Part shown: one piece after another, positions 1 through 41,149 of the stretch
Layout of the letters: each line of letters starts with the position of its first letter
Numbering within the stretch: the first letter of the stretch is position 1
UHGV virus genome: UHGV-0455966
Reading direction: 5' to 3' (one strand)
Length of the DNA: 41,149 bases
Source: a virus
The notes under the pieces: generated by a model
What the model saw: the letters and a program-made list of their open reading frames with translations, nothing else
The model's database searches: none
What the model was told of the DNA's origin: nothing
Made by a program: the position numbers and the translations under genes

Positions 1-1057
1 GGTCTTCAAAGTCAGCGATACGCTTCGCCATAATCAGATCGTCGGTAGTCTTGTTGCCAGTCCACAGCACCTTACTGTGTAGCCCCTGCCGCAGGTATAT
101 CACCGCGTCATCAACGCCTGAATATGCCGGGTCAACACCGATTATCACCGGAGCATGCGCCACCTGCGCAGCGGTTACCACCCGTTTCATTGCCTCATCA
201 GTAAGACCGGTAGGGATAAACTGCAATTCAGATGCATCAGGGAATATGCCGCGCACACGGATTTTAACGAAGTCGCTGTCTTCCCCGTAGTCATCAACCC
301 ATTTCTGCAACTGCTGTTTGTTAGTGCCTTCCACCGTCCGGCTGTCAATCTGCGCAGTTTTCCAGCGGTGTTTATATTTGCGGAAACATTCGCGGAAACG
401 CCCGGTGTTACGTGTAGGGTTTCCGAATGCCACCCAGATAATCTCAGTGTCTTCGTCCGTCAGCGCACCCTCTGCTACCTCCCACACCAGATCGGCAATG
501 TTGGATGCTTCGTCGAATACCACGATGATGCGTTTGCGCTCGTTGTGTAGTCCGGCGAATGCCTCAGTGTTGTGCTCAGACCAGGGGATTGCGTCAGCTC
601 GCCACCGCTTGTCGTGCCCAGGGTCATTGCTGTACATCGCGGTAGCGGTACAGGTAAACCAGTCTTTCGTGATAGCAAGGTTCGACCACTTGATAATTTC
701 CGGCCAGGTCTTCGTTCGTAGCTGGTTGTCGGTGTTGGCGGTCACCACGACCTTACAATCCTCGCAAGTGGACATGCCCCAGTTGATCAGCATTGAGATG
801 AATGCGGATTTACCAATACCGTGACCCGAAGCGCGTGCCAGCATAAGCGGCTGATAGCGCGTCTCTGGATTCTGCAGGTGATCACGTATCTCTCGGAACG
901 CATCAGCCTGCCACTGACGTGGACCGGTGGCATGTGCTAATTCAGTCCCCTCTTCCCCCCACGGGAACGCATAGAGGGCATAGCCAAGCGGATCGTGAGT
1001 GAACCCTGCAATATCCTCGATCAACTGCTCTTCAGGAGATAACGCTGTATCTGTCAC
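1..1057 (-). CDS. terL: terminase large subunit, N-terminal 352 codons (continues at 40737..41149)
   Basis: GTG start at 1057 overlapping terS stop (GTGA), RBS AGGATGG upstream; Walker A ARASGHGIGKS and Walker B VVFDEAS in translation; frame runs off position 1 leaving 1 nt. Confidence 0.85.
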   Translation of the reverse strand, partial: MTDTALSPEEQLIEDIAGFTHDPLGYALYAFPWGEEGTELAHATGPRQWQADAFREIRDHLQNPETRYQPLMLARASGHGIGKSAFISMLINWGMSTCEDCKVVVTANTDNQLRTKTWPEIIKWSNLAITKDWFTCTATAMYSNDPGHDKRWRADAIPWSEHNTEAFAGLHNERKRIIVVFDEASNIADLVWEVAEGALTDEDTEIIWVAFGNPTRNTGRFRECFRKYKHRWKTAQIDSRTVEGTNKQQLQKWVDDYGEDSDFVKIRVRGIFPDASELQFIPTGLTDEAMKRVVTAAQVAHAPVIIGVDPAYSGVDDAVIYLRQGLHSKVLWTGNKTTDDLIMAKRIADFED

Positions 1058-1650
1058 TGATTACCATCCTGACGTTCTTTGAGTCGCTTCCTGGCTGCCG
1101 CTATGCGATCAGCAATTGTCACATTCACATTAACATCCAGGCGTTCTTTGAATGCGTTGACGTCGACGTGCTTACCAATCAGTTCGAGGTTCTTCACCTT
1201 GTCAGGCCATTTAATTTTTTTGAGGATTGTCTCTATCGAATCCTCGTTCATGTTCATGATGGTCGATGACAGATCAAAGCCACTAAGCGTAGTGCGCCAG
1301 ATTTTCGGCCACTCACGGATTGGTTTAAGGCTCCCATCGTCGTTGAGGATATCGATCACGTCCATCTGGTCGATCTCCACCAGGCGCATGAGAACGTAAT
1401 CAGCACTGACGCGCATTCGTTTGTTGCGCTCCTCCATCAACTCGGCAATCCGTTTTTGAATGCGTTCATCGCGCATCATGACACTGGCTTTAACTGCCGC
1501 TGTATTTGGGGAGAATCCTGCGTTAATCGCTGCCTGAGTCTGGTTTTCAGGCGTTTTGATGTATGACTGGCAATAAGCCTCCTGCATTGCTGTGAGCGGC
1601 TTAAATTGCGTTGATTTGCGTTTATAGGTTTTAGGTTCAGCAGGCATCAT
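1054..1650 (-). CDS. terS: terminase small subunit
   Basis: Translation from MMPAEPKTYKRK...TAMQEAYCQSYIKTPENQTQAAINAGFSPNTAAVKA resembles Terminase_2-type small subunits; immediately upstream of terL. Track ORF start (1728) is probably an over-extension through a terminator and repeat. Confidence 0.7.
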   Translation of the reverse strand: MMPAEPKTYKRKSTQFKPLTAMQEAYCQSYIKTPENQTQAAINAGFSPNTAAVKASVMMRDERIQKRIAELMEERNKRMRVSADYVLMRLVEIDQMDVIDILNDDGSLKPIREWPKIWRTTLSGFDLSSTIMNMNEDSIETILKKIKWPDKVKNLELIGKHVDVNAFKERLDVNVNVTIADRIAAARKRLKERQDGNQ

Positions 1651-1654
1651 AACC

Positions 1655-1690
1655 ACCGTGGTAATAGTTACCGTTGTGGTAATAGTACCA
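1655..1690. repeat. tandem direct repeat GTGGTAATAGT(T)ACC x2 directly upstream of terS start
   Basis: Two 15-nt copies spaced 18 bp at 1658-1672 and 1676-1690, each containing GGTAA-N3-(T)TACC; lies between a minus-strand terminator and the terS ATG. Confidence 0.6.
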
Positions 1691-1691
1691 T

Positions 1692-1719
1692 GCAAAATAA
1701 AGCCGCCATAGTTGGCGGC
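1692..1719 (-). terminator. intrinsic terminator separating early/nin-like genes from terS
   Basis: Hairpin GCCGCC-atagtt-GGCGGC (1702-1719); on the minus strand followed by UUUAUUUU. Confidence 0.55.
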
Positions 1720-1768
1720 AGTATTCAAAACCCATCAAATTCATCATGCATAATCTACTCGTAACATG

Positions 1769-2110
1769 TCACACTATTAATTTCGTTTCATGCCAGCCTT
1801 TAGTCACCCAGCATTGCGAGTCACCATTACACGGGCATGAATTAACTGGAACTCTCTCGCCGCACTTACCGCAACGTTTTCTGCTGATCGATTTTATACG
1901 CCCGTGCACGCGTGCATCATCCTGGCGGATCAATAACGCTATATACTCACCAAATTCGTAAGGCGCACGCCCGGGGCGACGCGTGGCACAGTTACGCTCC
2001 AGCATTTCAATTTCCTGAGCATCAAGCACAATTTCCAGCTTACGCACACCAGATGCAGCTTGTCTGGCTCTCTGAGCGGCTTTGCGCTCTGCTGCTGATT
2101 TAGCCATCAA
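1769..2110 (-). CDS. hypothetical zinc-ribbon protein, possible late-gene regulator
   Basis: C-terminal CGKCGERVPVNSCPCNGDSQC cysteine cluster; sits immediately upstream of the terminator/terS, where lambdoid late regulators usually lie. Confidence 0.45.
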   Translation of the reverse strand: MMAKSAAERKAAQRARQAASGVRKLEIVLDAQEIEMLERNCATRRPGRAPYEFGEYIALLIRQDDARVHGRIKSISRKRCGKCGERVPVNSCPCNGDSQCWVTKGWHETKLIV

Positions 2111-2384
2111 TATTTACCTTTATCGCGAACACATTTACCGGTTTATCGCCGAAGTGTGGATGTGTGATTGTTTTTATTTCATATCCGTTATACGGGACGT
2201 CAATTCTGCGACTGAAGTCTTTGCGCTTCGGATATCCCTTTGTGATAATCAGGCGGTAATACTTACGGTTAACGAGGCGCTTATTCCAGTAGTCATTACA
2301 CAGGCGATACTCTTCCGTTTTCTCCCCGCGAATCATGGCATCGAAGTATTCACCTTTAACGGCAAGTTGCAGGTTAGCCATCAC
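2100..2384 (-). CDS. hypothetical protein (nin-region-like)
   Basis: 94-aa ORF in operon context, overlapping neighbours. Confidence 0.5.
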   Translation of the reverse strand: MMANLQLAVKGEYFDAMIRGEKTEEYRLCNDYWNKRLVNRKYYRLIITKGYPKRKDFSRRIDVPYNGYEIKTITHPHFGDKPVNVFAIKVNIDG

Positions 2385-2608
2385 TCATCATCCTCATCCC
2401 AATCATCGTCGTTATCGCCAACCGACCATAACAGTGGGTTGGTAACTTTGCTTATCTGGCTTGCATATCCGCTACGTCCAAGGCTTCTCAGTACGTTGTA
2501 TATTTCAAACATCTCAGTGCGTTCATCGCCAATGTCTAGCTGGCAGGCCAGTGCGTGACACTCTGAAGCGAGCGAGTCTAACTTTTGGAGGAATTCTGAT
2601 TTACTCAC
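2381..2608 (-). CDS. hypothetical small acidic protein
   Basis: GTG start at 2608 with GGAGG RBS, overlaps upstream stop; acidic tail DNDDDWDEDDE. Confidence 0.45.
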   Translation of the reverse strand: MSKSEFLQKLDSLASECHALACQLDIGDERTEMFEIYNVLRSLGRSGYASQISKVTNPLLWSVGDNDDDWDEDDE

Positions 2609-3447
2609 GGATTCACCTCCTGCGGCGGTTCTGGTAGCGGCATCCAGAACAAGGCGTTCCCTAACCACGATAAAGTGCCGTCGCTCAACTCCACGTATTC
2701 CCCTTGTACCTGTCCTGCCATATACTCGCCGTGCTTTGAATAAATTAAAATCCAATCATCTTGAGGGGGCATTCGCTCACTACAGCTTATCCAACCATCC
2801 GGAGTTACCGGAGAGTTGCCTGCCAGTCTACGCAAAACAGCCTTAACAGCCTCAATACGGTCATCATCGTAACTTTCCGCCGTATCTATGCGGTCGAGCA
2901 TGATGATTGCGTTATCAATATCAGGATTGCCGGTCCACTCATTACCGCGATTGGATTCGGCAGCCTGGTTGCCGCGTACTGGTTGATTGTCGGCTTTACC
3001 CAGTCTGTCGTCGCTGCATGAATGCCCTTCCAGCCAGGCCAATGCTTGTCGCATGAAATACGCAATATGTTTGCCGTGGTAATCGTCTTCATCGATGTGA
3101 AAAGCGATACTACGAATGTATTCAATTGCGTTTTCAATGGCCTCTAACGCTATCGGCGCTGGCGGAGTGGTATATAGTTTTCGACATTTGTATATCCAAC
3201 CGGCATGGTCAGGCGTGTCTGTAAAACGCAAATCGTCTTCGTAGCACTCACGACTACGTTCTTTCCATTCCGTCCACGGAACACCGCTATTCCAGGTGGG
3301 GCGAGTGCAGGACTGATACAGAACAGGCTCTGCTTCCAGTGATGCCAGCGCAATTCGTGCCAGTTCCATTTGTTCGCCACGGGTAAGCCCGTTATCAAGC
3401 GGATTTTTAATGAATAATTCGATACGTTCTTTGGTAATAGTGGTCAT
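2605..3447 (-). CDS. hypothetical protein with DUF551-like C-terminal domain
   Basis: C-terminal ...LSWLGNALFWMPLPEPP matches the WMPLPxPP signature recalled for DUF551 prophage proteins. Confidence 0.55.
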   Translation of the reverse strand: MTTITKERIELFIKNPLDNGLTRGEQMELARIALASLEAEPVLYQSCTRPTWNSGVPWTEWKERSRECYEDDLRFTDTPDHAGWIYKCRKLYTTPPAPIALEAIENAIEYIRSIAFHIDEDDYHGKHIAYFMRQALAWLEGHSCSDDRLGKADNQPVRGNQAAESNRGNEWTGNPDIDNAIIMLDRIDTAESYDDDRIEAVKAVLRRLAGNSPVTPDGWISCSERMPPQDDWILIYSKHGEYMAGQVQGEYVELSDGTLSWLGNALFWMPLPEPPQEVNP

Positions 3448-3653
3448 TTGTTAATCCTCAAAACTTTATGCCCGGGCGCAAAAGCACGTGTTTTGTCTTT
3501 ACTTATTCGCCACCCGTCTTTACGGGCCTCTTTTGCACAACCAGACCATGACGTACCGATATACTCACCGAAGTCTGGCACTGGATATACACCTTCCGTA
3601 CACTGGCGGCAGTCACAATAGAGATGCATGGTGTAACTTGCAGCGATAGCCAT
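3444..3653 (-). CDS. hypothetical Cys-rich small protein
   Basis: ATG at 3653 with AGGAGA RBS; MAIAASYTMHLYCDCRQCTEG... Confidence 0.5.
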   Translation of the reverse strand: MAIAASYTMHLYCDCRQCTEGVYPVPDFGEYIGTSWSGCAKEARKDGWRISKDKTRAFAPGHKVLRINK

Positions 3654-3654
3654 A

Positions 3655-4287
3655 TCACTCTCCTTTGATGCGAATGCCAGGGGCGCGTGGCACATTAACT
3701 TCCACGATGCGCACAGTTGGTTTGTACATCTCAATCGCAGTCAGCCAGTCAGCGCCAGTCATGCGCTTTTCTGCATCGCCATTAGTCCACTTAACCGGTA
3801 CACCAATAGCCTTCATCGCGATTTCTATTTCCCCGGCAATGGCGCTTTTTCCGCAACCAGTAAAACCAGATACAACGACCAGAACTTCACCTTTGGCTGG
3901 TTTTATTTCCCGCTCCTCCAGTTCAGCAATGCGCTTACTCCCATCCGAGATAACACCTTCGTAATACTCACGCTGCTCGTTGAGTTTTGATTTTGTCTCC
4001 TCAAGCTCAACTCTCAGCTTCCCAACCGTAAGCGCAATATCCTCGTTCTCCTGGTCGCGGGATTTGATGTATTGCTGGTTCCTTTCCCGTTCATCCAGTA
4101 GTGCCAGCACGGTTTCTGGTCCGGCCAGAAATTTGAAGGCGTTGAGCGCATCAATATCCACACCGTAATCTTTAAGTTCCTGTTCACTTAACAAATCATC
4201 ATCAGCTGGCAACATTAACAGGCGTTCCATTGCTGGAATTGCACGTTCCGCCGCCTCACGCAGTGCCTGGTAATTAATTTCGCTCAC
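3655..4287 (-). CDS. hypothetical coiled-coil protein with C-terminal P-loop motif
   Basis: Walker-A-like GFTGCGKS near C-terminus; N-terminal charged helical region. Confidence 0.5.
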   Translation of the reverse strand: MSEINYQALREAAERAIPAMERLLMLPADDDLLSEQELKDYGVDIDALNAFKFLAGPETVLALLDERERNQQYIKSRDQENEDIALTVGKLRVELEETKSKLNEQREYYEGVISDGSKRIAELEEREIKPAKGEVLVVVSGFTGCGKSAIAGEIEIAMKAIGVPVKWTNGDAEKRMTGADWLTAIEMYKPTVRIVEVNVPRAPGIRIKGE

Positions 4288-5045
4288 TGGTTGCCTCCTT
4301 TGCGAAGCTGGGCAGCAAAGTCAACTAACCACTCAGTCATTTCAACCTTCCCTACCAGGTCTGAACCAGGGTGCATACAGCAATCACTCTGCGCCGCTTT
4401 GAAATCCTTATACTCATATTCTTGGGCCACCAGATTTTTTGCAGCTTCTATAGCAGCATCCACGCCCCGCGCCCGCACTTCAGCCAGGAAGACGTCAGTG
4501 GACGGAGTTTGCACCGTGATGCTGTCACGCAGGATGAAGTACGCGTTAAGCATTCCGGTTTCAGGCATCTCCTCTGCATTAAATGCATCGATTGCAGCAT
4601 CCATTACAGGGCCAAGTGGTTGAGGGTGTGCGCTACGGATAGCATCACATTCAGCTATGATAGATTTGATTTTATCTACCAGGTCAGATGGTGACACGTC
4701 GTCAGCTGACCGATTAAACCCAAGTGCCTCCCGAACTGCGCACGACTCCGACATTCTTTGGTCTGCTTGCCCTGCTGACATTGAGTAGCGAGCATTCTCA
4801 GCAGCCAGAGCCGAAAACTTCTCGTGTGCCAACTTAACAGCCGCATCAGCCTGCTTAATTGACTCAATCGCTCTCTGGTGGTCTTCGGCCAGCGCATTAG
4901 CACGCACCAGTTGCACTTCCAGTTGCGTTGCCAAATCGCTGAGCAGCTTTGCCACATTACGCATATCAACGGCACCACATTCTGCTTTCAGTTCCGAAGC
5001 CATCTCATGCCCGGCGGCAACGAACCCTTTGATATTACTTTCCAT
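4284..5045 (-). CDS. hypothetical protein
   Basis: 253-aa ORF, same strand and coupled to neighbours. Confidence 0.5.
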   Translation of the reverse strand: MESNIKGFVAAGHEMASELKAECGAVDMRNVAKLLSDLATQLEVQLVRANALAEDHQRAIESIKQADAAVKLAHEKFSALAAENARYSMSAGQADQRMSESCAVREALGFNRSADDVSPSDLVDKIKSIIAECDAIRSAHPQPLGPVMDAAIDAFNAEEMPETGMLNAYFILRDSITVQTPSTDVFLAEVRARGVDAAIEAAKNLVAQEYEYKDFKAAQSDCCMHPGSDLVGKVEMTEWLVDFAAQLRKGGNQ

Positions 5046-5106: not shown

Positions 5107-5451
5107 TCAGAACTCTTCGATGTTCCAGCCACCACCTGCTTTCTTTGGTTTAACCGTTACCCCGATGATTCGGAACGGATACTGATCTGCGGCGACTTTG
5201 GTTTTCACTCTGGCGTCGTCGGTCCAGAAACCTTTCACTTCGTGCAGTTCCATCTCGCCGGTGGCGAGCATCACAGCAAAATCGGGCGTATAGAACGTGT
5301 TGTCAGCTAACCGCAGCTTGATACCCTCGAATCGATACCAGGCGATTTCCCCTGCACGTTTACGCTGCTCAAGGTGCTGGCAATACGCAGATTCTGTTTT
5401 GTTCATCTGGCCTGTTTTGAGTCGACCAAGAGCCTGTATCTGTTTTCTCAT
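5107..5451 (-). CDS. DUF1064-like phage protein
   Basis: MRKQIQALGRLKTGQMNKTE...FEGIKLRLADNTFYTPDF recalled as DUF1064 pattern. Confidence 0.5.
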   Translation of the reverse strand: MRKQIQALGRLKTGQMNKTESAYCQHLEQRKRAGEIAWYRFEGIKLRLADNTFYTPDFAVMLATGEMELHEVKGFWTDDARVKTKVAADQYPFRIIGVTVKPKKAGGGWNIEEF

Positions 5452-5568
5452 GATTTACCTCTAAGGTAATTAAAAACCACATAAGACACGAAATCAATAG
5501 AGTTTAGAATATTTTGTTACCTGATAGGTAATTATTGAGACGTAAAAAAATGCGCTATCGCGCTGGTA

Positions 5569-6369
5569 TTACTTGATAAATCCTGCCACCTTTCCCCGCC
5601 TGTATTCCTCCATCAGCCACTGCGCCGGTGTTATTCCCCCAAGGGTGGCGGCGTTAGGCATGCACCCGAAACTTCGCCCTGGTGGATGGTAAACGTCTCT
5701 CCCTGTGTCCGGAGGCGTACTCATGGGTTCTGGCTTTGCCTGTATGCTGATCACCGGATCGGGTATCTGCTGTCCGGAAGCCACCTTTTTCGCCCAATCA
5801 TCGAGCAGCCTGCGCGCGTGTTTCTCAACCTCAATCTCGCTAAGCTGGCGCTGATACATTGCACGGCGGGTATCACATACGACCCAGTACATAACCGGAT
5901 GTCGCCACGGGAATCTTTCGGGACCACCAGGATATAAACTTTTTTCCTTGCTGTACCGGTGAAACTCCGCCATCACATCGTCAATGGTGACGCCAAGAAC
6001 CATCTTGCTGTCTTTACACCACTTGATGAATTGCCCTGGCGACGGCCAGAACGGAGACTCACTGGCGCGGGCGTGGCGCATACCAGCAGAAACCTGTTCA
6101 CGGGTTCGGATCCCCCCTTCGGCAAACGCAGCAATCCACTGCTGTTTTGCAGCAACTTCCTGCTCTGGCGTCTTCAGGTTGGTTACCACTGCCGCCGGAA
6201 ACAGTTGTTTCAGCTGTTTAAAAAGGGCATCAACAAGCCTCTCTGCTGACATGTTCACCACATTGTCATTGTTGACGTACTGATGCTCATAACCTGACAT
6301 GCGAGAAAGGGCTTCTCCGTCACGGTTTTGTATCGCAGTAAAAACGTTGTTCACAAGAAATCCTCCCAT
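5569..6369 (-). CDS. replication protein P-like (helicase loader)
   Basis: ...AAFAEGGIRTREQVSAGMRHARASESPFWPSPGQFIKWCKD aligns by eye with lambda P ...NGITTMEQVNAGMRVARRQNRPFLPSPGQFVAWCRE; start may be a later Met since it overlaps the O-like gene end. Confidence 0.7.
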   Translation of the reverse strand: MGGFLVNNVFTAIQNRDGEALSRMSGYEHQYVNNDNVVNMSAERLVDALFKQLKQLFPAAVVTNLKTPEQEVAAKQQWIAAFAEGGIRTREQVSAGMRHARASESPFWPSPGQFIKWCKDSKMVLGVTIDDVMAEFHRYSKEKSLYPGGPERFPWRHPVMYWVVCDTRRAMYQRQLSEIEVEKHARRLLDDWAKKVASGQQIPDPVISIQAKPEPMSTPPDTGRDVYHPPGRSFGCMPNAATLGGITPAQWLMEEYRRGKVAGFIK

Positions 6370-7166
6370 GCTTCAGGGCTGTTCCAGTGCGGAACGTTGT
6401 TATCAGGTAATGTTGATTGCTTCTGTCTGCTAATCTGCAGCCGCCTTGCCAGCTTCTGCTCCCACTGTGCCTGATGGTATGCCTTACCCTCAGCCATCCA
6501 GTAAATTCTGAACTCTGCAAGTTCCTGTGCCGTTGGCAGACTGTCCAGGTAGATCCCCTGCAATGAGCTTTTCCGAAGAAAGTCATCTGATGGCTGCCAT
6601 TGTTCATGCATGACAAATTTGCCTAATTGCCCTGGCCCACCAGGAGGAACAAAGTTATTCATCACGGCGTTGTTTGCGCCGGGGTCATGAGGCACAGAAT
6701 CCCCGCTTTTTGTCCTGCTCTCCCTCTCTTGGTTAAATGACTGGTTATATGACTGGTTCTGGATCCCGTTTTTGGGATCATTCAACATCCCGTTTTTGGG
6801 ATCATTCAACATCCCGTTTTTGGGTATATTCCCGTTTTCGGTAACATTACCGTTTTCGGGTCCATTACCCCCTTCCCGGTTGCCTTTAATGTTCCCGTTT
6901 TTGGTTATATTAAGAGAGAAAACCCGCACTCTTTTCGTCGCTCCCTTTCTCTCTCCGGTATCTGAAATAAGCCCCATTTTCATGAGCGATATAAGCCCGG
7001 CCTGCACGGTTTTTTTATTCAGGCAAGTGTCTTTAACGAGGCGTTCTATGCTGGGGTAGCAGAGGTTATATTCATCGGCTCTGTCAGCCATCGAGAGCAG
7101 TATGAGCTTTAATGACGAGCTACCTGGATCTGTCTCCCAGGCCCAATCTGTTGCATGTCTGCTCAT
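6351..7166 (-). CDS. replication initiator, O-like, with internal origin iterons
   Basis: N-terminal HTH-like region, Asn/Gly-rich repeat KNGMLNDPKNGMLNDPKNG encoded by DNA iterons, directly upstream of P-like gene. Confidence 0.65.
   Translation of the reverse strand: MSRHATDWAWETDPGSSSLKLILLSMADRADEYNLCYPSIERLVKDTCLNKKTVQAGLISLMKMGLISDTGERKGATKRVRVFSLNITKNGNIKGNREGGNGPENGNVTENGNIPKNGMLNDPKNGMLNDPKNGIQNQSYNQSFNQERESRTKSGDSVPHDPGANNAVMNNFVPPGGPGQLGKFVMHEQWQPSDDFLRKSSLQGIYLDSLPTAQELAEFRIYWMAEGKAYHQAQWEQKLARRLQISRQKQSTLPDNNVPHWNSPEAWEDFL
6763..6914. repeat. putative replication origin iterons inside the O-like gene
   Basis: About 6 copies of TCCCGTTTT(T)GG at roughly 20-24 bp spacing (two perfect 24-mers ATCCCGTTTTTGGGATCATTCAAC at 6763 and 6787), followed by AT-rich stretch. 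Confidence 0.65.
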
Positions 7167-7181
7167 GATTAATCTCCGCTA

Positions 7182-7382: not shown

Positions 7383-7483
7383 GGTAAGCCCTGTTATTAG
7401 TATTGGGATTACGGTCATTTTGTGCTGACACAAAAAAAAGATCAACCAGATTTGGTTTTTTATTACCTTTGAGGTACGAATAG

Positions 7484-7511
7484 ATATGAAAAGACCGCCG
7501 GGTGGCGGTCT
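7484..7511 (-). terminator. intrinsic terminator downstream of Cro-like gene (tR1-like position)
   Basis: 8-bp stem AGACCGCC/GGCGGTCT with GGGT loop; minus strand followed by UUUUC. Confidence 0.5.
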
Positions 7512-7532
7512 ACAGAGGGTTGTAGCTGGATA

Positions 7533-20165: not shown

Positions 20166-20169
20166 ATTT

Positions 20170-23804: not shown

Positions 23805-23805
23805 C

Positions 23806-34386: not shown

Positions 34387-34430
34387 TCCTGCAATAAAGG
34401 GGCCGAAGCCCCTTGTCGGATTCGCGAGGC

Positions 34431-34775
34431 TTACACGCCCAGTTCTTTACGCTTATCTGCGATCTTCTCGCGGAGCGTTTCGGCTTTAGCGTTATGGTGT
34501 GGCTTCTCGTTAAAGAGCAATTCGTACTCTTCACGGAGCTTATCCAGTTCACCATCATCTGACACATCGTTGATGATTTTGGTGCTGGTTGCTGCCATAG
34601 ACACCTTTCCTGCTACCTTTGCTTTTGCCTGTCTGGCTGCATCGTTAACAGGTTCCAGTGCGCTACCAGGCTCACCTTCGTATTCGATTTCTGCCCCCTC
34701 CGGCCACAGTGTGTTATGGATATGAGAGAGGCGCAGAACGCGGTATCTTGGTTTCTCACCTGACATCGATATCAC
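34431..34775 (-). CDS. hypothetical virion-module protein
   Basis: 114-aa ORF, charged/helical. Confidence 0.45.
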   Translation of the reverse strand: MISMSGEKPRYRVLRLSHIHNTLWPEGAEIEYEGEPGSALEPVNDAARQAKAKVAGKVSMAATSTKIINDVSDDGELDKLREEYELLFNEKPHHNAKAETLREKIADKRKELGV

Positions 34776-34776
34776 C

Positions 34777-35214
34777 TTAACCAGTTACTTTTGAGCGGAT
34801 CGGGTACGGCGTATTGGCATCAACATCCAGACTGATACCCGCAGTGAATTTGCCGGCCGTTAGTGGGCCAGTTGCGACGGAGTAGTTAACACGCAGATAT
34901 CGCTGAACACCGGCTGGCACCTTTGCAGAAACAACTCGCTTACCTGCTGTCAGGGTGGCCTTTGCCAACGCACCACTATCATAAATAGTGGTCCAAGAGC
35001 TGTTATTCTCACTCGTCTGCAACTGGATGTTTACAGTTGCCTCACCACTTGCCGTGGCGGCTTCGTTAACCAGCCCCCAAAACTCAAGCGGGTAACCCAC
35101 ACCGATATCGCGACGGTTTCCATCAATTGGACCGAGATCGATTACGTCAGTAGAAGCCGCGGTATCAGTTACCGCCTGTGCTTCGGAGAACATCAACAGT
35201 TTGTCGGTGATCAT
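34777..35214 (-). CDS. hypothetical virion protein (decoration or adaptor candidate)
   Basis: 145-aa ORF immediately after capsid gene. Confidence 0.45.
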   Translation of the reverse strand: MITDKLLMFSEAQAVTDTAASTDVIDLGPIDGNRRDIGVGYPLEFWGLVNEAATASGEATVNIQLQTSENNSSWTTIYDSGALAKATLTAGKRVVSAKVPAGVQRYLRVNYSVATGPLTAGKFTAGISLDVDANTPYPIRSKVTG

Positions 35215-35265
35215 CTTCTTTCTCCATTAGTGGGTCTGTTACGACCCACAGGTTAATAACAGGCG

Positions 35266-36258
35266 TTACACCACGCGGGCTTCTGTTTCCAGAAGCGCAT
35301 CAGTTTCACGGATTGGTACACCACGGAATGACGTCCACCACTCGCCTTCAGTCTCTTTTACGCTAATCGCCAGAGATGTTTTCTCCAGAGACTGCAGATC
35401 AAGAGCCTGGCCTACAGTGCGGTTCATGTAGAACACCGGGCGACCCATGCCACGGTTTGGAATGCGATGCAGTGCTTTAACCATCAACTTCGCAATATTT
35501 GCGGCAGAGGAAGGTTCTGAAAGATTGCTGACATCGATGTTTGCAATGCGAACAACATAACGCCAGTCACGCAGAGCAAGTCCGTTATCCCATTTGTAAT
35601 GGGTGCGATAGCCTTCGTACTTGCCGCCATTAGCATCTTCCAGTGTCACCTGGCCTTTATCTTCCATCTGGATGCCAGCCTTCTGCCCTTTCGGGAAGAT
35701 GCCATGCACGGTGTTTTCGCCCCACACTACTAACCAGATTGAGGTGTTATCTGTACCCGTGCCACCAGCATCAATGATGTTCTGAGCATTACCCGCAGAC
35801 AGGCTGGAATAGCGGGAGGACAGTCCCATAAACTGCTGAGGGTTAACGCTGGAATCACCATAAAACAGTGTCTGCGCCATCTGCTGATTCATCGCTTCAA
35901 TAAATGCGCGGTCTTCAGACAGGCGGAATTCGGCGGTATTACCGTTCAGATCAGCCAGTGACTTATCGACTTCAGCATAGGTTTCCAGCATTCCAACGGA
36001 ATCGGTGACCTGCACTGTGGTTGATTTGCTTGGCTGTACGCCATAGTTCAGCAAACGCCAGGTGGCTGAAGGTAAACCAGAACGAATGGTGGTTCGGTGT
36101 CCGGTAGGAAGGTTCCCTTCGACAAAAGGCATATCCTGAAGGATCGGGTTAGTTTGACCGAGAAGCTCGATAATCTTATCGACTTTCCCGTTTGGATCGA
36201 CGCGCTTACCCCAGTCAGCCAGCGTTAGCGCAGTTAAGCCTTTAACAGCCATTGTCAT
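35266..36258 (-). CDS. major capsid protein
   Basis: 330 aa, follows scaffold gene, strong codon bias; T7 gp10-like size and position. Confidence 0.7.
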   Translation of the reverse strand: MTMAVKGLTALTLADWGKRVDPNGKVDKIIELLGQTNPILQDMPFVEGNLPTGHRTTIRSGLPSATWRLLNYGVQPSKSTTVQVTDSVGMLETYAEVDKSLADLNGNTAEFRLSEDRAFIEAMNQQMAQTLFYGDSSVNPQQFMGLSSRYSSLSAGNAQNIIDAGGTGTDNTSIWLVVWGENTVHGIFPKGQKAGIQMEDKGQVTLEDANGGKYEGYRTHYKWDNGLALRDWRYVVRIANIDVSNLSEPSSAANIAKLMVKALHRIPNRGMGRPVFYMNRTVGQALDLQSLEKTSLAISVKETEGEWWTSFRGVPIRETDALLETEARVV

Positions 36259-36266
36259 TTCCTCTC

Positions 36267-36968
36267 TTATTTGCCATAGAGCACTTCGGCCGCACTACGC
36301 TGGCCTTCATTACCACCGGTGACCATGCCATCTTCAGACATCGCCTTTCCGATTTTCACGAACGTTTTGACCAGATCAGGGTGATTACCCAGTCCGGTGG
36401 TGTTCAGATATTCTTTGAGTTCAGGTGTCCCGAACTGGTCAAGCGCACGCTGTGCGGCGCTAAGGTTAGAAATCAACTTGTCGCCACCGATTTCTTTGTC
36501 AGCTTTTACATCAGCAGCCCACTGCTCGGTTGTTTTCTGCCAGGCTTCTGCCTGGCGCTGCTGCACACCTGCCAGAATCTTCGGATAAGCATCAACCAGC
36601 TTTTGCGCTTGCTCGTTGGTCAGGTTAAGTTCTCGCGCCACCGGCTCGAACTCCTTCAACGCTTCTGTATCCAGCTCTACGCCTTCGGCAGCCTGAAACT
36701 CGTACTTCTCAGGCGCACCCTCTGGTTTATCGCCGTCCTTTTTTTCATCCTGCTTATCGTTTTCAGGCTTTTTGTCATCAGCAGGTTTATCGCCATCAGC
36801 AACAGGTTGTGGCTTATCACCTTCCTGTTGTGATGGATCACCAACTGGAGCAGGGTTATCACCTGCAGGCGCTAACGGTTCTGACGCAGCCGGAGCTGCT
36901 CCACCATCGACTGGTTGCTCATTGCAAAGACGGCGATACAGCAAACGCTCAAATAAATTCATGATCAC
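36267..36968 (-). CDS. capsid scaffolding protein
   Basis: Highly acidic, Pro/Asp/Lys-rich, helical protein between portal and capsid genes. Confidence 0.6.
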   Translation of the reverse strand: MIMNLFERLLYRRLCNEQPVDGGAAPAASEPLAPAGDNPAPVGDPSQQEGDKPQPVADGDKPADDKKPENDKQDEKKDGDKPEGAPEKYEFQAAEGVELDTEALKEFEPVARELNLTNEQAQKLVDAYPKILAGVQQRQAEAWQKTTEQWAADVKADKEIGGDKLISNLSAAQRALDQFGTPELKEYLNTTGLGNHPDLVKTFVKIGKAMSEDGMVTGGNEGQRSAAEVLYGK

Positions 36969-37261
36969 TCCTGTTCACTGGCCTCTTTGGCCATCTTCAA
37001 ATACTGTTCAGGGCAATGCGCCATAACGCGCTGAAACAGTTCCAGCGCCAGATTGCGTTGCCCCTCATTAAATGCCATTGCCATAGCGTCCATCGGTGAG
37101 ATAGCGGAAAACACCCGGCCTTTCTCCAGCACAGACCAGACAACGCGACGCCCCTGTTCACTGCTCATGACAAAGCGAATGTCATCAATTTCACGCTGTG
37201 CCATGTCACGTTGCTTACTGGCGTTTTCTTCTTTCAGTTGATCATCTTCGTAATCTGTCAT
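36965..37261 (-). CDS. hypothetical small protein
   Basis: 98-aa ORF coupled between portal and scaffold genes. Confidence 0.4.
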   Translation of the reverse strand: MTDYEDDQLKEENASKQRDMAQREIDDIRFVMSSEQGRRVVWSVLEKGRVFSAISPMDAMAMAFNEGQRNLALELFQRVMAHCPEQYLKMAKEASEQE

Positions 37262-38937
37262 TGTGATTGCCCACCCTGACCACTAACTGCATTCGCCATA
37301 GCTGACAAAACACTCGGATCCGAAGTTTTAGCTTCGCTTAGCGTCTTGGCACCCTGTGCCGCCGCCATCCCCATCGCCATCATTTGTTGCTGCTGTTGTT
37401 GCTGTGCCCGTTGCTGGCGAGCCTGCTCAACCTGTTCCTGCGGAACAATGACGGTTGGAGACACTCCGGACATATCAGCGAATGCATCGATCGCCTGATC
37501 AACGTTGAGTTTGTCGAGAGCTTCTGGTTTCGCTTGCGCAAGTTGACCAATGAAGTTAACCGTGGACGCCAGACTGGACAGGCCGATAGACTTCTGCGCC
37601 TGAGCCATGACAGAAATGTATTCGACCTTCAGGGGCATACCTTCCATCGCGTCAGGCGGTGGCGGCAGCATGTTTTTACGCACCATCATCGAGAAAGCGC
37701 GGTCAATGAGAGGATTAAGACATTCGTCGTTCAGACGCTCCAGAACCGGCCCCAACATCAGAAGTTTTTCTTCTTTCATTTCGATCACCGCTTCAACAGG
37801 CATCGAGCGGGTATTGATGTTCTGCAACATCATGAACAGATCGACAAAGTAGGCGCTGTTAATGATTTGGCGGGTGTCCTGAATGTCTGCTACCAGATCT
37901 GCTGTACTGGGGTTAACCAGATAAGCAGGCCTGAAACCATCCTGACCAGTAATCTGATCGATATACGTGATGTCGCCAGGAAGAAGGGAGGCGCGCTGAT
38001 TCTTGAGGGAAGTCGGAGCAACCATCGGCGGATTGGTGGCTTTATCAATCAACTGCGACTTGCGCTTCTGGAGAAGCTGCAATGCCTTAACAGGTCCAAG
38101 CGCCAGCATACCCGGGCATGATGATCCATAAACATCTTCGCCGTTAACTTCCCAGCGCGGAGCCATAATTGGAAACTCATCGAATCCGGACTCACGCAAC
38201 AACTTGTCGTTATCGCCACCAACCTCGTAATAAACCGATTTGAATGGCTTGTTCTTGCTATCCAGCTTCGATGTATCGCGGTCAATGTTCGGGTAAACCG
38301 AATGCATCACTTCAATCCACTTCTCGTAGGTGCCGCTTTCCCACATGCTTTTTACGGATTCGCTGACGTTATTTAGCCCGAACTCCCGAACAAGCTGACG
38401 AACAGTCATAGAGAACTTGCGAAAACAGGTGTCCACACTGCCACGAGGTGAGTTAGCCAGGTAGTAACTGCCTATCGGGAATGGCATTGTGCGAATGATG
38501 TCCTCGTCATCCTCCAGCACCGCCATTGCACCAGTGCTGTATGTGCCGAGGCTTCCGTATAACTGCGGAAGAGACTGGTAGAGATTCGACTTATTGAACA
38601 TATCGTTCATGCGGTTCTGCACCGCCTCAAGCCACAACTTAACAGGGCCATAATCCATCATTTCAGGATCTGGCGTAGCCAGGCGAAACCACGGACGCGC
38701 GGGGCTTGTGATGCCTGACATCATGCCGCTGGCGAGAGTGCGCGCCGCCATAGTCCCGGTCGAATCAATAATGCGTGTATTGCGTCGATCGTTACGGTTG
38801 ACCTCAGAAGTAAGAAAGCGGGAACCACGCGGGTTGATGTAATCACTCAACTCGCGCCAGTGCGGCTCGAACGACTGACGCTCGCTTTCAAGTTGTGCGA
38901 ACTGTTTGTTCAATCGCTCTTTAGTTGTTTCCGCCAT
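37258..38937 (-). CDS. portal protein (T7 gp8-like head-tail connector)
   Basis: 559 aa; Gln/Ala/Met-rich C-terminal tail QQRAQQQQQQQMMAMGMAAAQGAK like T7 gp8 C-terminus; first large gene after terL. Confidence 0.7.
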   Translation of the reverse strand: MAETTKERLNKQFAQLESERQSFEPHWRELSDYINPRGSRFLTSEVNRNDRRNTRIIDSTGTMAARTLASGMMSGITSPARPWFRLATPDPEMMDYGPVKLWLEAVQNRMNDMFNKSNLYQSLPQLYGSLGTYSTGAMAVLEDDEDIIRTMPFPIGSYYLANSPRGSVDTCFRKFSMTVRQLVREFGLNNVSESVKSMWESGTYEKWIEVMHSVYPNIDRDTSKLDSKNKPFKSVYYEVGGDNDKLLRESGFDEFPIMAPRWEVNGEDVYGSSCPGMLALGPVKALQLLQKRKSQLIDKATNPPMVAPTSLKNQRASLLPGDITYIDQITGQDGFRPAYLVNPSTADLVADIQDTRQIINSAYFVDLFMMLQNINTRSMPVEAVIEMKEEKLLMLGPVLERLNDECLNPLIDRAFSMMVRKNMLPPPPDAMEGMPLKVEYISVMAQAQKSIGLSSLASTVNFIGQLAQAKPEALDKLNVDQAIDAFADMSGVSPTVIVPQEQVEQARQQRAQQQQQQQMMAMGMAAAQGAKTLSEAKTSDPSVLSAMANAVSGQGGQSQ

Positions 38938-39585: not shown

Positions 39586-39662
39586 GTGGCATTAGCTCAG
39601 TTGGACAGAGCAACCGCCTTCTAAGCGGTTGGTCGCAGGTTCGAATCCTGCATGCCGCGCCA
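39586..39662 (+). tRNA. tRNA-Arg (anticodon UCU)
   Basis: Hand-folded cloverleaf: acceptor GTGGCAT/ATGCCGC, D-stem GCTC/GAGC, anticodon stem ACCGC/GCGGT with loop CUUCUAA, T-arm GCAGG-TTCGAAT-CCTGC, discriminator G, encoded CCA. Confidence 0.85.
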
Positions 39663-39705
39663 GAATCACGCCTAAGGACCGTGATGCCAGAAGTTCCAGG
39701 GGCTT

Positions 39706-39748
39706 GGCGGTGATGGTTTCCCTTGAAGGACTATCACCGCCCTTTTTA
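39706..39748 (+). terminator. hairpin plus T-run downstream of tRNA
   Basis: GGCGGTGAT ... ATCACCGCC then CTTTTT. Confidence 0.5.
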
Positions 39749-39825
39749 CAGCAGGACGCCATTGCGATGACTTCATGCTGTAAACCCGTACAGCCACGGA
39801 AGGCATAACTCATTGCTTCCAGTTC

Positions 39826-39849
39826 GCCCGGTTCGCCGGGCATTTTTTT
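39826..39849 (+). terminator. strong intrinsic terminator (UUCG tetraloop)
   Basis: GCCCGG-ttcg-CCGGGC followed by ATTTTTTT. Confidence 0.7.
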
Positions 39850-39865
39850 GCCTGATGACCACAAA

Positions 39866-39883
39866 TTACCTTAAAGGTATAAT
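39866..39883 (+). promoter_or_regulatory. imperfect palindrome TTACC-ttaaa-GGTAT overlapping a perfect TATAAT
   Basis: TATAAT at 39878-39883 ends 1 nt before ATG 39885. Confidence 0.45.
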
Positions 39884-39884
39884 C

Positions 39885-40733
39885 ATGAAAAACTTTAAGG
39901 TAATTAGTATGTTCGAATCGTTCAAAGAGCTGTTTTTATCTACTGCCAATACTGCCGTGCATCGAGCTAAAAACCCTGTGCTAGGTGCTTTTGTTATGTC
40001 CTGGTGCGCCTTCAACTGGAAATCACTTCTTTATCTATTTTTTAGCAAATCAAATATAATAGATAAAATTTCATACATCTCAGATAACAGCACATGGAAA
40101 ACTGTTATGTTTTATCCATGCTTATCTGTAATTACTATCTGCTGCCTATTACCATGGGTAAACAATATCATTAACGTATGGCAAGCAAAGCCTCTTGATA
40201 ATAATGACTCAATCGAAAATCACCGGAAGGCAAGAAAAATACAACGTGAAACACGGCTACAGAGATTGCTGGCTAAAAAAGACATTACTTACGAAAAAGT
40301 AAAAACAGGCGCTGAAAAAAACATTCAAGACATGAAAGAGGAAATAATTCTTTCAAAAGACAGAATGGGACAACTCACATCTGAATTGAAAGAGAGGGAG
40401 ACAGAACTGCGCGCAGCACAAGCTCGTATTTTAGAATTATCTAAGGTTATTCATGAAACAACATCTAAACTAGAAAATCTAGAAAAAGCCCACAAAAATT
40501 TAAAAAACGAATATGAGTCCTATAAGAAAAACATTCCTTTGGCAACAAATAATACAATTGCTAATGGGTTTGTAGGTCTAAAATCATTACAAGACCTTAA
40601 TGAGTCCGTAAAGAAACTTGGCGTTACTGGAATTAACAATCCAGAAATCAGTACATTATTGAATAATCCTCTAGTAAATATAAATGGTGGTTTAAATTCC
40701 ACCCATCAAAGAAAATCAAAAACACAAAAGTAA
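39885..40733 (+). CDS. AT-rich accessory protein: two N-terminal TM helices + long coiled coil, unknown function
   Basis: ATG 39885 with AAGG RBS (track start 39813 lies inside a terminator); opposite strand to flanking late genes; low GC. Confidence 0.6.
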   Translation: MKNFKVISMFESFKELFLSTANTAVHRAKNPVLGAFVMSWCAFNWKSLLYLFFSKSNIIDKISYISDNSTWKTVMFYPCLSVITICCLLPWVNNIINVWQAKPLDNNDSIENHRKARKIQRETRLQRLLAKKDITYEKVKTGAEKNIQDMKEEIILSKDRMGQLTSELKERETELRAAQARILELSKVIHETTSKLENLEKAHKNLKNEYESYKKNIPLATNNTIANGFVGLKSLQDLNESVKKLGVTGINNPEISTLLNNPLVNINGGLNSTHQRKSKTQK

Positions 40734-40736
40734 AAA

Positions 40737-41149
40737 TCATTCAAATGGGTCATAGTCTGTTATAGCCCTGCCCTGCTGCTGCCGTGGGTCATTAGTTTTC
40801 TTGGCTACCGGGAACGCAAACGTCAGCAGTAGCGCATCGCCTTTACCCGGCGAACGCCCAAGCCGCTCCTTGATATCTTCCTTCGGTTCGATAACGATTT
40901 TACCGTCCACTCGAACTTTGTACTCTGCCGCCGACAGGTCGTCTGCTGTTTCCTGGTCATCCAGCATGCCGCCCAGCCTCAGCCATGTCTTGCATGAATT
41001 GAACATCTCCCCACGCTTGTTGAGCATCTGCGGGTCAGTAGACGCGCCACCGAACGGAACAAGTTGCCATGTACGACCCCATCCGTCACCGATTGACTTC
41101 AGACCGGTTCCGTAACCGAAGTCGATGAACACCGCGTCAGCCTGATACT
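40737..41149 (-). CDS. terL: terminase large subunit, C-terminal part (continues from window start)
   Basis: Frame continuous with 1-1057: position 1 (C) plus 41149-41148 (AG) form codon CAG joining ...RIADFED to YQADAVFIDFGYGTG... Confidence 0.8.
   Translation of the reverse strand, partial: YQADAVFIDFGYGTGLKSIGDGWGRTWQLVPFGGASTDPQMLNKRGEMFNSCKTWLRLGGMLDDQETADDLSAAEYKVRVDGKIVIEPKEDIKERLGRSPGKGDALLLTFAFPVAKKTNDPRQQQGRAITDYDPFE

What the first reader, a model, noticed from the sequence alone, without database searches (positions are those of the whole stretch)
1..41149. Window is a circularly closed phage genome: terL spans the end/start junction in frame
The minus-strand terL ORF leaves one nucleotide (C) at position 1, and the last two window bases (AG) complete a CAG codon that continues into a C-terminal terminase segment ending at 40737. 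Combined length is about 487 aa with Walker A and B motifs in the N-part. So the window is a whole replicon (phage or excised prophage assembled as a circle), and no host junctions or att direct repeats should be expected at its edges.
Basis: seen in the sequence. Interest (0 to 1): 0.4.

Follow-up and report, generated by a model that had tools for sequence, protein, structure and literature searches.

The report
Complete phiV10-like phage genome, arbitrarily rotated
The window is one complete copy of a well-known kind of temperate E. coli phage (phiV10/epsilon15-like), written as a circle that happens to be opened inside its large-terminase gene; this is ordinary, and the real closure point is the 17-bp attachment-site core, not the terminase gene.

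Summary
On the minus strand, position 1 and the last two bases form a CAG codon (Q353). The joined ORF (1057..1 plus 41149..40737, GTG start) encodes a 489-aa large terminase with no stop, frameshift or indel. The same joined sequence is contiguous in phiV10, ZX5, EC.W1-9, E. coli prophages and 98 IMG/VR contigs.

The window is exactly one genome unit of a phiV10/epsilon15-like temperate podophage. It has no host DNA, no internal duplication, and one intact attP core (ATTGAGTGGGAATGATT, 13995-14011) 190 bp upstream of int.

The terL "junction" is only an arbitrary origin. The window is 100% identical to a linear ENA metagenome scaffold of 41,166 bp (41,149 + 17). That scaffold runs from att core to att core, and terL lies uninterrupted inside it. 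Trimming one core copy, rotating and reverse-complementing it gives the window.

The circle is therefore closed at att. This rebuilds the authentic attP, but it does not prove that a circular molecule was sequenced. The closest isolate genome (GPEC1186) carries this phage as a tandem double prophage at guaA.

Interest is low.

The parts
1..1057 (-). terL, N-terminal 352 codons plus the first base of codon 353. This part holds the ATPase domain (P-loop GHGIGKS, Walker B IIVVFDE) and the start of the nuclease domain (VIIGVDPAYSG).
   Evidence: (PHROG 2, E 4.7e-52, one stretch covering residues 21-478).
40737..41149 (-). terL, last two bases of codon 353, then 136 codons and the TGA stop (40737-40739).
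   Evidence: It is contiguous with part 1 in phiV10, GPEC1186 and the ENA scaffold.
1054..1728 (-). terS (small terminase). Its stop overlaps the terL GTG start.
   Evidence: Pfam Terminase_2, E 1.4e-29; PGAP annotation in GPEC1186.
13995..14011 (-). attP core ATTGAGTGGGAATGATT (the 3' end of guaA, including its stop codon). There is one copy, and it is the true closure point of the circle.
   Evidence: Derived from attL, attR and the tandem junction of GPEC1186. It is identical to the experimentally proven core of phiV10, epsilon15 and ZX5, which lies 190 bp 5' of int (PMC9782041). It forms the end of the ENA scaffold.
12554..13804 (-). Tyrosine integrase (P4-type, with an arm-binding domain).
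   Evidence: Pfam Arm-DNA-bind_3, Phage_int_M and Phage_integrase.
14099..15911 (-). Lysis cassette: two holin-like genes, a GH19 endolysin and a DUF2514/Rz-like spanin.
   Evidence: Annotation transferred from the 99.8-100% identical GPEC1186 prophage; Pfam labels.
16407..18596 (-). Tailspike / tail fibre (729 aa). The N-terminus is conserved. The AT-rich receptor-binding part is unlike that of phiV10.
   Evidence: PHROG 5662.
23806..34057 (-). Tail and internal-virion (ejection) protein block: connector-family protein, 823-aa tail protein, T7 gp14-like core protein, and 915-aa and 1129-aa proteins.
34057..38937 (-). Head module: portal (37258-38937), Bbp19, protease, major capsid protein (35266-36252), Bbp16 cement protein and gp10 staple protein.
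   Evidence: Pfam Head-tail_con E 4.9e-187 and GP7 E 2.1e-149.
5107..8502 (.). Immunity and replication region: CI-like repressor (7918-8502 +), cro-like gene (7533-7763 -), DnaT-like protein (6351-7166 -), lambda P-like protein (5569-6354 -) and DUF1064 (5107-5451 -).
8656..12550 (+). Early-left operon: PD-(D/E)XK exonuclease, RecT, AlpA-like HTH protein, PerC, MT-A70 methyltransferase and DUF1382.
1769..5045 (-). Late-early accessory genes (ASCH, DUF551, Ead/Ea22). This includes the segment 3367-4458, which differs from GPEC1186.
19074..21130 (.). Accessory and immI-like region: YafO-family toxin (19074-19580 -) with an upstream 147-aa ORF, isrK (20202-20277 +), C4 antisense RNA (20302-20387 +) and a BRO-N/Ant antirepressor (20435-21130 +).
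39586..40733 (+). tRNA-Arg(TCT) (39586-39662) and an AT-rich 282-aa coiled-coil moron (39885-40733) that is convergent with terL.

Best explanation
The window is the complete 41,149-bp genome of a phiV10/epsilon15-like temperate podophage of E. coli. It is presented as a circular permutation whose origin happens to fall inside the large-terminase gene.

**Shown.**
- Joining the window's ends restores an intact 489-aa TerL.
- The window holds every module of the phage and one intact attP.
- The window equals a linear 41,166-bp metagenome scaffold that runs from att core to att core, after one 17-bp core copy is removed and the sequence is rotated and reverse-complemented.
- The terL split is therefore a bookkeeping artefact, and the only real join is at the att core (13995-14011).

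**Inferred.**
- A contig that stops exactly at the outer edge of the core on both sides is what a de Bruijn graph gives when reads contain both the phage-core-phage junction and the host-core-phage hybrids (attL, attR).
- The phage-core-phage junction (attP) can come from excised circles, replicating concatemers, permuted virion DNA or a tandem prophage.
- The sample therefore probably held lysogens that were undergoing spontaneous induction.

**From established knowledge of the family.**
- Injected DNA circularises.
- Int recombines the 17-bp core with the 3' end of guaA.
- After induction, TerS/TerL (a distant relative of P1 PacB) cut concatemers and fill heads.
- The virions most likely carry circularly permuted, terminally redundant DNA, which is why these genomes have no fixed ends and are deposited with arbitrary origins.
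For: **Junction.**
- It is in frame and homologous across the join.
- The exact junction 40-mer lies inside 98 IMG/VR contigs.
- The bases either side are adjacent in phiV10, ZX5, TL-2011b, PAS61, phiv142-3, PH444 and GPEC1186.
- Deposited relatives each use a different origin. The ends of phiV10 map to window 1768|1769, and those of EC.W1-9 to 7345|7346. Both points are contiguous in the window.

**TerL identity.**
- PHROG 2, E 4.7e-52, spanning the junction.
- Thousands of full-length homologues of 489-494 aa named terminase.
- Foldseek of an AF2 model of a 97%-identical homologue returns only large terminases in its top 25: Sf6 gp2, T4 gp17, D6E, HSV and T7.
- terS (Pfam Terminase_2) lies immediately upstream.

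**Completeness.**
- The length equals one prophage period of GPEC1186 after allowing for the swapped segment.
- There are no repeats.
- The gene content matches phiV10 module by module.

**att.**
- The core was derived independently from attL, attR and the tandem junction. It is identical to the published, experimentally verified core and spacing.
- The attP region is contiguous in virion-derived phiV10 DNA (window 10584-14110).

**Source.**
- The ENA scaffold is 41,166 bp.
- There are 0 mismatches over 31,445 bp when the window is reverse-complemented, rotated to the core and given a second core copy.
- The scaffold end reads ...ATTGAGTGGGAATGATT.

**Packaging.**
- The relative Tyrion was shown by PCR to be terminally redundant and circularly permuted.
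- TerL has about 24% identity to P1 PacB.
Against: - The first 564 bases and bases 21408-30564 of the scaffold were not read. Their identity is inferred from register and total length.
- The pipeline that turned the scaffold into the window is unknown. An independent circular assembly of the same phage cannot be excluded.
- No reads are available, so the physical state in the sample (circle, concatemer, tandem or integrated) is inferred from contig boundaries only. That inference rests on assumptions about the assembler.
- The joined TerL has no Pfam, NCBIfam or PDB-sequence hit.
- The AF2 model is mediocre (pLDDT 61, C-terminal third below 50), so support for the nuclease domain is weaker than for the ATPase domain.
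- Headful packaging is transferred from a relative and was not tested for this phage.
Confidence: 0.9

Rival explanations
1. The window comes from a genuinely circular assembly. This could be an excised or replicating phage, or an extrachromosomal episome, recovered as a closed contig and independent of the core-to-core ENA scaffold. The assembler would then have placed the origin arbitrarily in terL.
For: Related phages do appear as closed circular 'plasmid' records in complete E. coli assemblies. pHL15EC-2 (41,027 bp) has its origin inside the portal gene. The window has no terminal overlap. ZX5 lysogens spontaneously release 10^7 PFU/ml.
Against: The only contig in the searched collections that carries the distinctive 280-aa ORF at full length is the linear scaffold of 41,149 + 17 bp. 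No contig of 41,149 bp turned up in the listed IMG/VR hits (80 of the 98 junction hits and all 23 unique-segment hits shown), and no phage or plasmid record covers 80% or more of the window. A pure circle would be broken at a random point with a k-mer overlap, not exactly at the att core.
Confidence: 0.07
2. The window is a one-period excerpt of a tandem (head-to-tail) prophage array. On this view its two terL pieces belong to two neighbouring copies.
For: The nearest isolate genome, E. coli GPEC1186, carries two 41,749-bp copies in tandem at guaA that differ at 2 positions. The interval 4410451-4452199 of that chromosome is collinear with the window as given.
Against: A window cut from a chromosome would not be exactly one period long to the base. 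The window differs from GPEC1186 by a 1,092/1,692-bp segment swap. It is identical to a single-unit scaffold bounded by att cores.
Confidence: 0.02
3. The phage existed in the sample only as a simple integrated prophage (attL...attR). The circle is then purely computational, made by merging the two att-core copies, and no attP junction was ever sequenced.
For: In nearly all isolate contigs that encode this exact integrase, int lies 192 bp downstream of guaA, i.e. the phage is integrated. A 17-bp terminal repeat equal to the att core is also the signature of prophage ends.
Against: With only attL, attR and attB in the reads, graph branching would leave k-17 host bases on the contig ends, or would drop the core altogether. 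The scaffold end that was read stops exactly at the last core base with no host base. This argument depends on assumptions about the assembler.
Confidence: 0.25

Closest known systems
Escherichia phage phiV10 (NC_007804.2; Uetakevirus phiV10) and close relatives vB_EcoP_ZX5, EC.W1-9, phiv142-3, PAS61 and TL-2011b
   Same: The gene order is the same from terS/terL through the head, tail, lysis, int, early and replication modules. Shared regions are 95-99% identical at nucleotide level. TerL is 97-99% identical. The 17-bp attP core, its 190-bp spacing from int, and integration at the guaA 3' end are all the same.
   Different: The genome is mosaic. About 15% of the window has no match in phiV10 or EC.W1-9 (gaps listed). 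The unmatched parts include the receptor-binding part of the tailspike, the AT-rich blocks 21156-22843 and 39899-40742, and Ea22/DUF551-region segments. There is no oac O-acetyltransferase where phiV10 has one. The record origin is in terL rather than upstream of terS.
Tandem prophage at guaA in E. coli GPEC1186 (NZ_CM142789.1, 4395838-4479335)
   Same: Identity is 99.8-100% over 40,057 of 41,149 bp. The tailspike, morons and integrase are the same. The junction between the two copies is identical to the window's attP.
   Different: It is integrated and duplicated. It carries 1,692 bp where the window has 1,092 bp (window 3367-4458).
ENA metagenome scaffold ERZ28600891 LIXU21-1_SAMN18386044_METAG-scaffold_151 (41,166 bp)
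   Same: It is identical (0 mismatches) over the 31,445 bp that could be fetched.
   Different: It is linear, on the opposite strand, starts and ends with the att core (17 bp longer), and has terL uninterrupted in its interior.
Salmonella phage epsilon15 and Enterobacter phage Tyrion
   Same: They share the virion architecture genes (GP7 capsid, Bbp16 cement, gp10 staple, portal), the integrase and att core (epsilon15), and a circularly permuted, terminally redundant genome (Tyrion, shown by PCR).
   Different: Nucleotide identity is only about 75-82%, and only in the structural genes. The hosts and accessory genes differ.
pHL15EC-2 / NZ_CP079768.1 'plasmids' (41,027 bp circular records)
   Same: These are phiV10-like phage genomes recovered as closed circles, with an arbitrary origin that splits a structural gene (the portal).
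   Different: They cover 58% of the first 25 kb of the window at 95.7% identity. They carry an acyltransferase and an SGNH tailspike. They are deposited as plasmids.

Membership tests
Large terminase subunit (TerL) of tailed phages | N-terminal ASCE ATPase with a P-loop (Walker A) and Walker B | tested here: met
   GHGIGKS (78-84) and IIVVFDE (177-183) are invariant in 23 aligned homologues. The ATPase part of the model has pLDDT 70-96, and the top fold hits are the terminases Sf6 gp2 and T4 gp17.
Large terminase subunit (TerL) of tailed phages | C-terminal RNase H-like nuclease domain with conserved acidic residues | tested here: inconclusive
   D309, D316, D357 and D362 are invariant. Fold hits to the Sf6 and E217 TerL nuclease domains are weak (E 3e-3 to 2e-2), and the model has pLDDT below 50 beyond residue 382.
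Large terminase subunit (TerL) of tailed phages | Match to curated terminase profile HMMs | tested here: inconclusive
   There is no Pfam, NCBIfam or PDB-sequence hit. PHROG 2 'terminase large subunit' matches at E 4.7e-52 over residues 21-478.
Large terminase subunit (TerL) of tailed phages | Encoded next to terS and upstream of the portal in the packaging/head module | tested here: met
   terS (Terminase_2) overlaps the terL start. The portal lies 1.8 kb downstream, after a moron and a tRNA.
Complete, circularly permuted phage genome | The ends join without loss or duplication, and the length equals one genome unit | tested here: met
   The bases either side of the junction are adjacent in seven related phage records and in the GPEC1186 chromosome. 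41,749 - 1,692 + 1,092 = 41,149. There are no terminal or internal repeats.
Complete, circularly permuted phage genome | Read-level support for closure (reads spanning the join) | not testable with these tools
   No reads are available. The source scaffold is linear with a 17-bp terminal repeat that is the att core.
phiV10/epsilon15-like temperate podophages (genus Uetakevirus) | Synteny and an epsilon15-type structural module | tested here: met
   (GP7, Head-tail_con, Bbp16, Bbp19, gp10-like, T7_gp14).
phiV10/epsilon15-like temperate podophages (genus Uetakevirus) | Integration through the core ATTGAGTGGGAATGATT at the 3' end of guaA by a P4-type integrase | tested here: met
   The core is at 13995-14011, 190 bp from int. 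attL and attR were seen in GPEC1186. This agrees with the literature.
phiV10/epsilon15-like temperate podophages (genus Uetakevirus) | At least 70% genome-wide nucleotide similarity to a genus member (ICTV genus criterion; stated from general knowledge) | tested here: inconclusive
   The best phage record is EC.W1-9, at about 53% of 25 kb and 93% of 16 kb covered at 96-98% identity. That gives about 67% overall. phiV10 scores lower. No formal VIRIDIC-type calculation was run.
Headful (pac) packaging | Virion DNA is terminally redundant and circularly permuted, and the terminase belongs to the pac type | not testable with these tools
   The only evidence is indirect. The relative Tyrion was shown to be permuted by PCR. 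TerL has about 24% identity to P1 PacB.
Integrated prophage with host flanks | Host sequence beyond attL and attR within the window | tested here: not met
   Both arms around the single core are phage DNA, identical to the inter-copy junction of the tandem array and to phiV10 attP.

The most novel reading that the evidence does not exclude
Phages of this group might routinely persist in a multicopy state rather than as simple single-copy prophages. That state could be a tandem array at guaA or a stably maintained circular episome. The split-terL circle would then reflect a real long-lived replicon. The hints are the GPEC1186 tandem, the 41-kb 'plasmid' records in two duck isolates, and the core-to-core metagenome contig.
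Probability: 0.05. Interest if true: 0.3.

Novelty: already known. Interest (0 to 1): 0.07.

Why it matters
This finding matters mainly for handling the window, not for biology.

- The window edges are artefactual. Gene callers on the linear sequence miss terL or report two fragments: the ORF listing shows only a 131-aa piece at 40737-41132.
- Any search for ends, att sites or host junctions should look at 13995-14011, not at the edges.
- A terminal repeat used to call a contig "circular" can simply be a prophage att core. A circular call made that way does not prove that a circular molecule existed.
- This abundant TerL family escapes Pfam and NCBIfam, and PGAP calls it "hypothetical protein" in GPEC1186.

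Tried and rejected
- **Profile and sequence searches on the joined TerL.** Pfam, NCBIfam and PDB-sequence searches found nothing.
- **Structure prediction.** A 97%-identical homologue was used instead, and it gave only a mediocre model.
- **Search for the source.** Two IMG/VR scans (the junction 40-mer and a 50-mer from the unique segment) found many relatives but no 41,149-bp contig among the hits listed. The phage and plasmid collections hold no record covering 80% or more.
- **Reading the rest of the ENA scaffold.** Look-ups through the integrase (twice) and the 915-aa protein failed to return the scaffold's first 564 bases or its middle 9.2 kb, because commoner contexts were listed instead.
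- **Literature.** The epsilon15 genome paper (Kropinski 2007) is not held. Searches for epsilon15 with 'headful' gave nothing specific. The sample accession is not mentioned in any held paper.
- **Defence-gene scan.** PADLOC on the accessory ORFs gave only weak coiled-coil matches.
- **Ideas rejected.** A chance in-frame join, a host-flanked prophage window, and a tandem-array excerpt as the origin of the window were all considered and rejected.

Full report
**1. The observation**

The window begins ggtcttcaaa and ends ...gcctgatact. Read on the minus strand across the end/start join, the sequence is TTT GAA GAC C|AG TAT CAG GCT GAC, which translates as FED-Q-YQAD.

Concatenating the window end to its start gives one stop-free frame of 490 codons. 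The gene starts at a GTG at 1057-1055, which overlaps the terS stop codon (GTGA). It runs to position 1, resumes at 41149, and stops at the TGA at 40739-40737. That is 1,470 nt, or 489 aa.

The P-loop (GHGIGKS, 78-84) and Walker B (IIVVFDE, 177-183) lie in the 1..1057 part.

**2. More than chance**

- The 40-mer centred on the junction occurs uninterrupted inside 98 IMG/VR contigs.
- Window 41149|1 maps to adjacent bases in phiV10 (1769|1768) and in the chromosome of E. coli GPEC1186 (4410451|4410450).
- Searches show the same adjacency in ZX5, phiv142-3, TL-2011b, PAS61 and PH444.
- The joined protein aligns without a gap across the junction to a 491-aa homologue at 97% identity.
- It aligns as a single tblastn piece covering at least 80% of its length in 146 phage records, most of them annotated as large terminase.

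**3. Is it a terminase?**

Pfam, NCBIfam and a sequence search of the PDB found nothing.

The other evidence is positive:

- PHROG 2 (terminase large subunit) matches at E 4.7e-52 in one stretch, residues 21-478, which spans the junction.
- The big protein database holds thousands of full-length relatives of 489-494 aa that NCBI names "terminase". None has a precomputed Pfam domain.
The model is mediocre: mean pLDDT is 61, the ATPase half is good and the C-terminal third is poor.
- Even so, the top 25 Foldseek hits in the PDB are all large terminases (Sf6 gp2, T4 gp17, D6E, herpesvirus, T7, PhiV-1). Separate, weaker hits go to TerL nuclease domains.
- terS (Pfam Terminase_2, E 1.4e-29) sits immediately upstream.

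I regard the TerL assignment as secure. The ATPase domain is shown. The nuclease domain is supported only by conserved acidic residues and weak fold hits.

**4. What the window is**

The window matches phiV10-like E. coli phages (genus Uetakevirus) at 95-99% identity in a mosaic pattern.

Every phiV10 module is present, in the same order:

- terS and terL
- portal, protease, GP7-type capsid, Bbp16 cement and gp10 staple
- tail and ejection proteins, and the tailspike
- holins, GH19 endolysin and spanin
- integrase
- methylase, PerC, AlpA, RecT and exonuclease
- CI- and Cro-like regulators
- DnaT-like and P-like replication proteins
- Ea22, DUF551 and ASCH genes

Deposited relatives each use a different origin. 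The ends of phiV10 fall at window 1768|1769 and those of EC.W1-9 at 7345|7346. Both points are contiguous in the window. All these records are circular permutations of one map.

**5. Exactly one unit, no host DNA**

The nearest sequence is a prophage in E. coli GPEC1186 (chicken isolate). It is 99.8-100% identical, except that window 3367-4458 (1,092 bp) is replaced there by 1,692 bp.

That chromosome carries two head-to-tail copies of 41,749 bp at the 3' end of guaA. The copies differ at 2 positions. The arithmetic 41,749 - 1,692 + 1,092 = 41,149 gives the window length to the base.

Aligning attL, attR, the inter-copy junction and the window gives the core ATTGAGTGGGAATGATT, which is the end of guaA including its stop codon. 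The window has one copy, at 13995-14011, with phage DNA on both sides. It is identical to the inter-copy junction.

The ZX5 paper reports this same 17-mer, 190 bp 5' of int, as the experimentally verified attP of ZX5, phiV10 and epsilon15 (PMC9782041). The window has the same 190-bp spacing.

The window has no terminal repeat of 10-400 bp and no internal direct repeat of 25 bp or more.

**6. Where the window comes from, and what that changes**

I looked up a distinctive 280-aa ORF (2605-3447). It led to an ENA metagenome scaffold, ERZ28600891 LIXU21-1_SAMN18386044_METAG-scaffold_151, of 41,166 bp. That is 41,149 + 17. A second look-up fetched its 3' end.

I then reverse-complemented the window, rotated it to start at the att core and appended a second core copy. 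The resulting 41,166-bp sequence is identical, with 0 mismatches, to both fetched stretches (records 565-21407 and 30565-41166; 31,445 bp in total). The scaffold ends ...CCGTAAATAATTGAGTGGGAATGATT.

That the scaffold starts at the first core base follows from register and total length. I could not read bases 1-564 or 21408-30564.

So the public contig is linear, bounded by the att core as a 17-bp direct repeat, and has terL intact in its interior. The window is that contig with one repeat copy removed, then rotated. The terL "junction" is an arbitrary origin. The only real join is at the att core.

That join reproduces the authentic attP, which is contiguous in virion-derived phiV10 DNA (window 10584-14110). 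The circle is therefore the correct genome map.

**7. Physical state (inference)**

A pure circle would be broken by an assembler at a random place with a k-mer overlap, not at the att core.

Lysogens plus non-lysogens alone (attL, attR, attB) would leave host bases on the contig ends, or would exclude the core. A contig that stops exactly at the outer edge of the core on both sides is expected when reads contain both phage-core-phage junctions and the host/phage hybrids.

The sample therefore most likely held lysogens together with excised, replicating, virion or tandem DNA. This fits the high spontaneous induction reported for ZX5. The argument depends on assumptions about the assembler, and only the reads can settle it.

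Related phages do turn up as closed 41-kb "plasmids" in complete assemblies, with an origin that splits the portal gene. In isolate contigs that encode this exact integrase, the usual state is integrated at guaA.

**8. Mechanism**

From established knowledge of this family and from the parts shown here, the life cycle runs as follows:

- The genome circularises after injection.
- The P4-type integrase (Arm-DNA-bind_3, Phage_int_M and Phage_integrase domains) recombines the 17-bp core with the guaA 3' end and regenerates the guaA stop.
- After induction, TerS/TerL package from concatemers.

Circular permutation with terminal redundancy was shown by PCR for the relative Tyrion (PMC5754475). TerL is distantly related to P1 PacB (about 24% identity). 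Headful packaging is therefore likely, but it was not tested for this phage.

**9. Verdict**

The interpretation (a whole phage genome in circular form, with no host or att repeats at the window's edges) is supported, with one correction. The terL continuity reflects rotation rather than closure. The att repeats bound the source contig and sit at 13995-14011.

This is an already known kind of element: a mosaic strain of a well-studied phage group. Interest is low. The practical value is to warn that the edges are artefactual, and that a "circular" call based on a short terminal repeat can be a prophage att core.

Noticed in passing
L003-L005 (NZ_CM142789.1, 4395838-4479335): E. coli GPEC1186 carries this phage as two head-to-tail copies of 41,749 bp at the 3' end of guaA. 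The copies differ at only 2 positions, and an attP-type junction lies between them. This is either a real tandem lysogen or a long-read assembly artefact caused by concatemeric phage DNA.
   Followed up: partly
L006 (NZ_CP079771.1 pHL15EC-2; also NZ_CP079768.1): Two duck E. coli assemblies list a 41,027-bp circular 'plasmid' that is a complete phiV10-like phage genome. Its record origin lies inside the portal gene, and that gene is annotated as frameshifted.
   Followed up: partly
Proteins P0004-P0025 and P0062 (relatives of window terL); Salmonella phage 65FD terL (H98): TerL relatives at about 95% identity are 812-814 aa long. They carry an insertion of about 321 aa with a LAGLIDADG_3 homing-endonuclease domain exactly after GHGIGK in the P-loop, which looks like an intein. 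The window's terL lacks it.
   Followed up: partly
window 1..1057 + 40737..41149: This very abundant TerL family is hit by no Pfam or NCBIfam model. PGAP labels it 'hypothetical protein' in GPEC1186 (WP_000132532.1).
   Followed up: yes
window 20202-21130 (+): Rfam finds isrK (20202-20277, 76.7 bits) and a C4 antisense RNA (20302-20387, 77.7 bits) directly upstream of the BRO-N/Ant antirepressor gene. This resembles a P1/P7 immI-type antisense control of an antirepressor.
   Followed up: no
window 19074-20013 (-): PGAP names a YafO-family type II toxin here (168 aa; PHROG 1651; no Pfam hit in my scan). It overlaps the end of an upstream 147-aa ORF of unknown function, which may be its antitoxin. 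The pair lies between the tailspike and the ant region.
   Followed up: no
window 39586-40733 (+): A tRNA-Arg(TCT) is followed by an AT-rich (about 38% GC) 282-aa coiled-coil ORF (PHROG 4780). The ORF has its own promoter-like site and is convergent with terL. phiV10 has a different gene at this spot, so this looks like a moron hot spot. PADLOC gives only weak SMC-like coiled-coil matches (LmuB, JetC).
   Followed up: partly
window 21243-22844 (+): A three-gene block of 34-37% GC (69, 287 and 167 aa; PHROGs 3630 and 36918) is absent from phiV10 and EC.W1-9 and has no known function. The last ORF has a sub-threshold resemblance to YtoQ / nucleoside 2-deoxyribosyltransferase-like proteins. It may be a superinfection-exclusion or defence cargo.
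   Followed up: partly
window 3367-4458: This is the only segment that differs from the GPEC1186 prophage: 1,092 bp here against 1,692 bp there. It lies in the Ead/Ea22-DUF551 accessory region, which also matches P1-like plasmids and other lambdoid prophages.
   Followed up: partly
window 16114-18060: No O-antigen acetyltransferase (oac) lies between the tailspike and the holins, where phiV10 has one. The C-terminal, AT-rich part of the 729-aa tailspike has no match in phiV10 or EC.W1-9. This points to a different O-antigen specificity and to no acetylation-type seroconversion.
   Followed up: no
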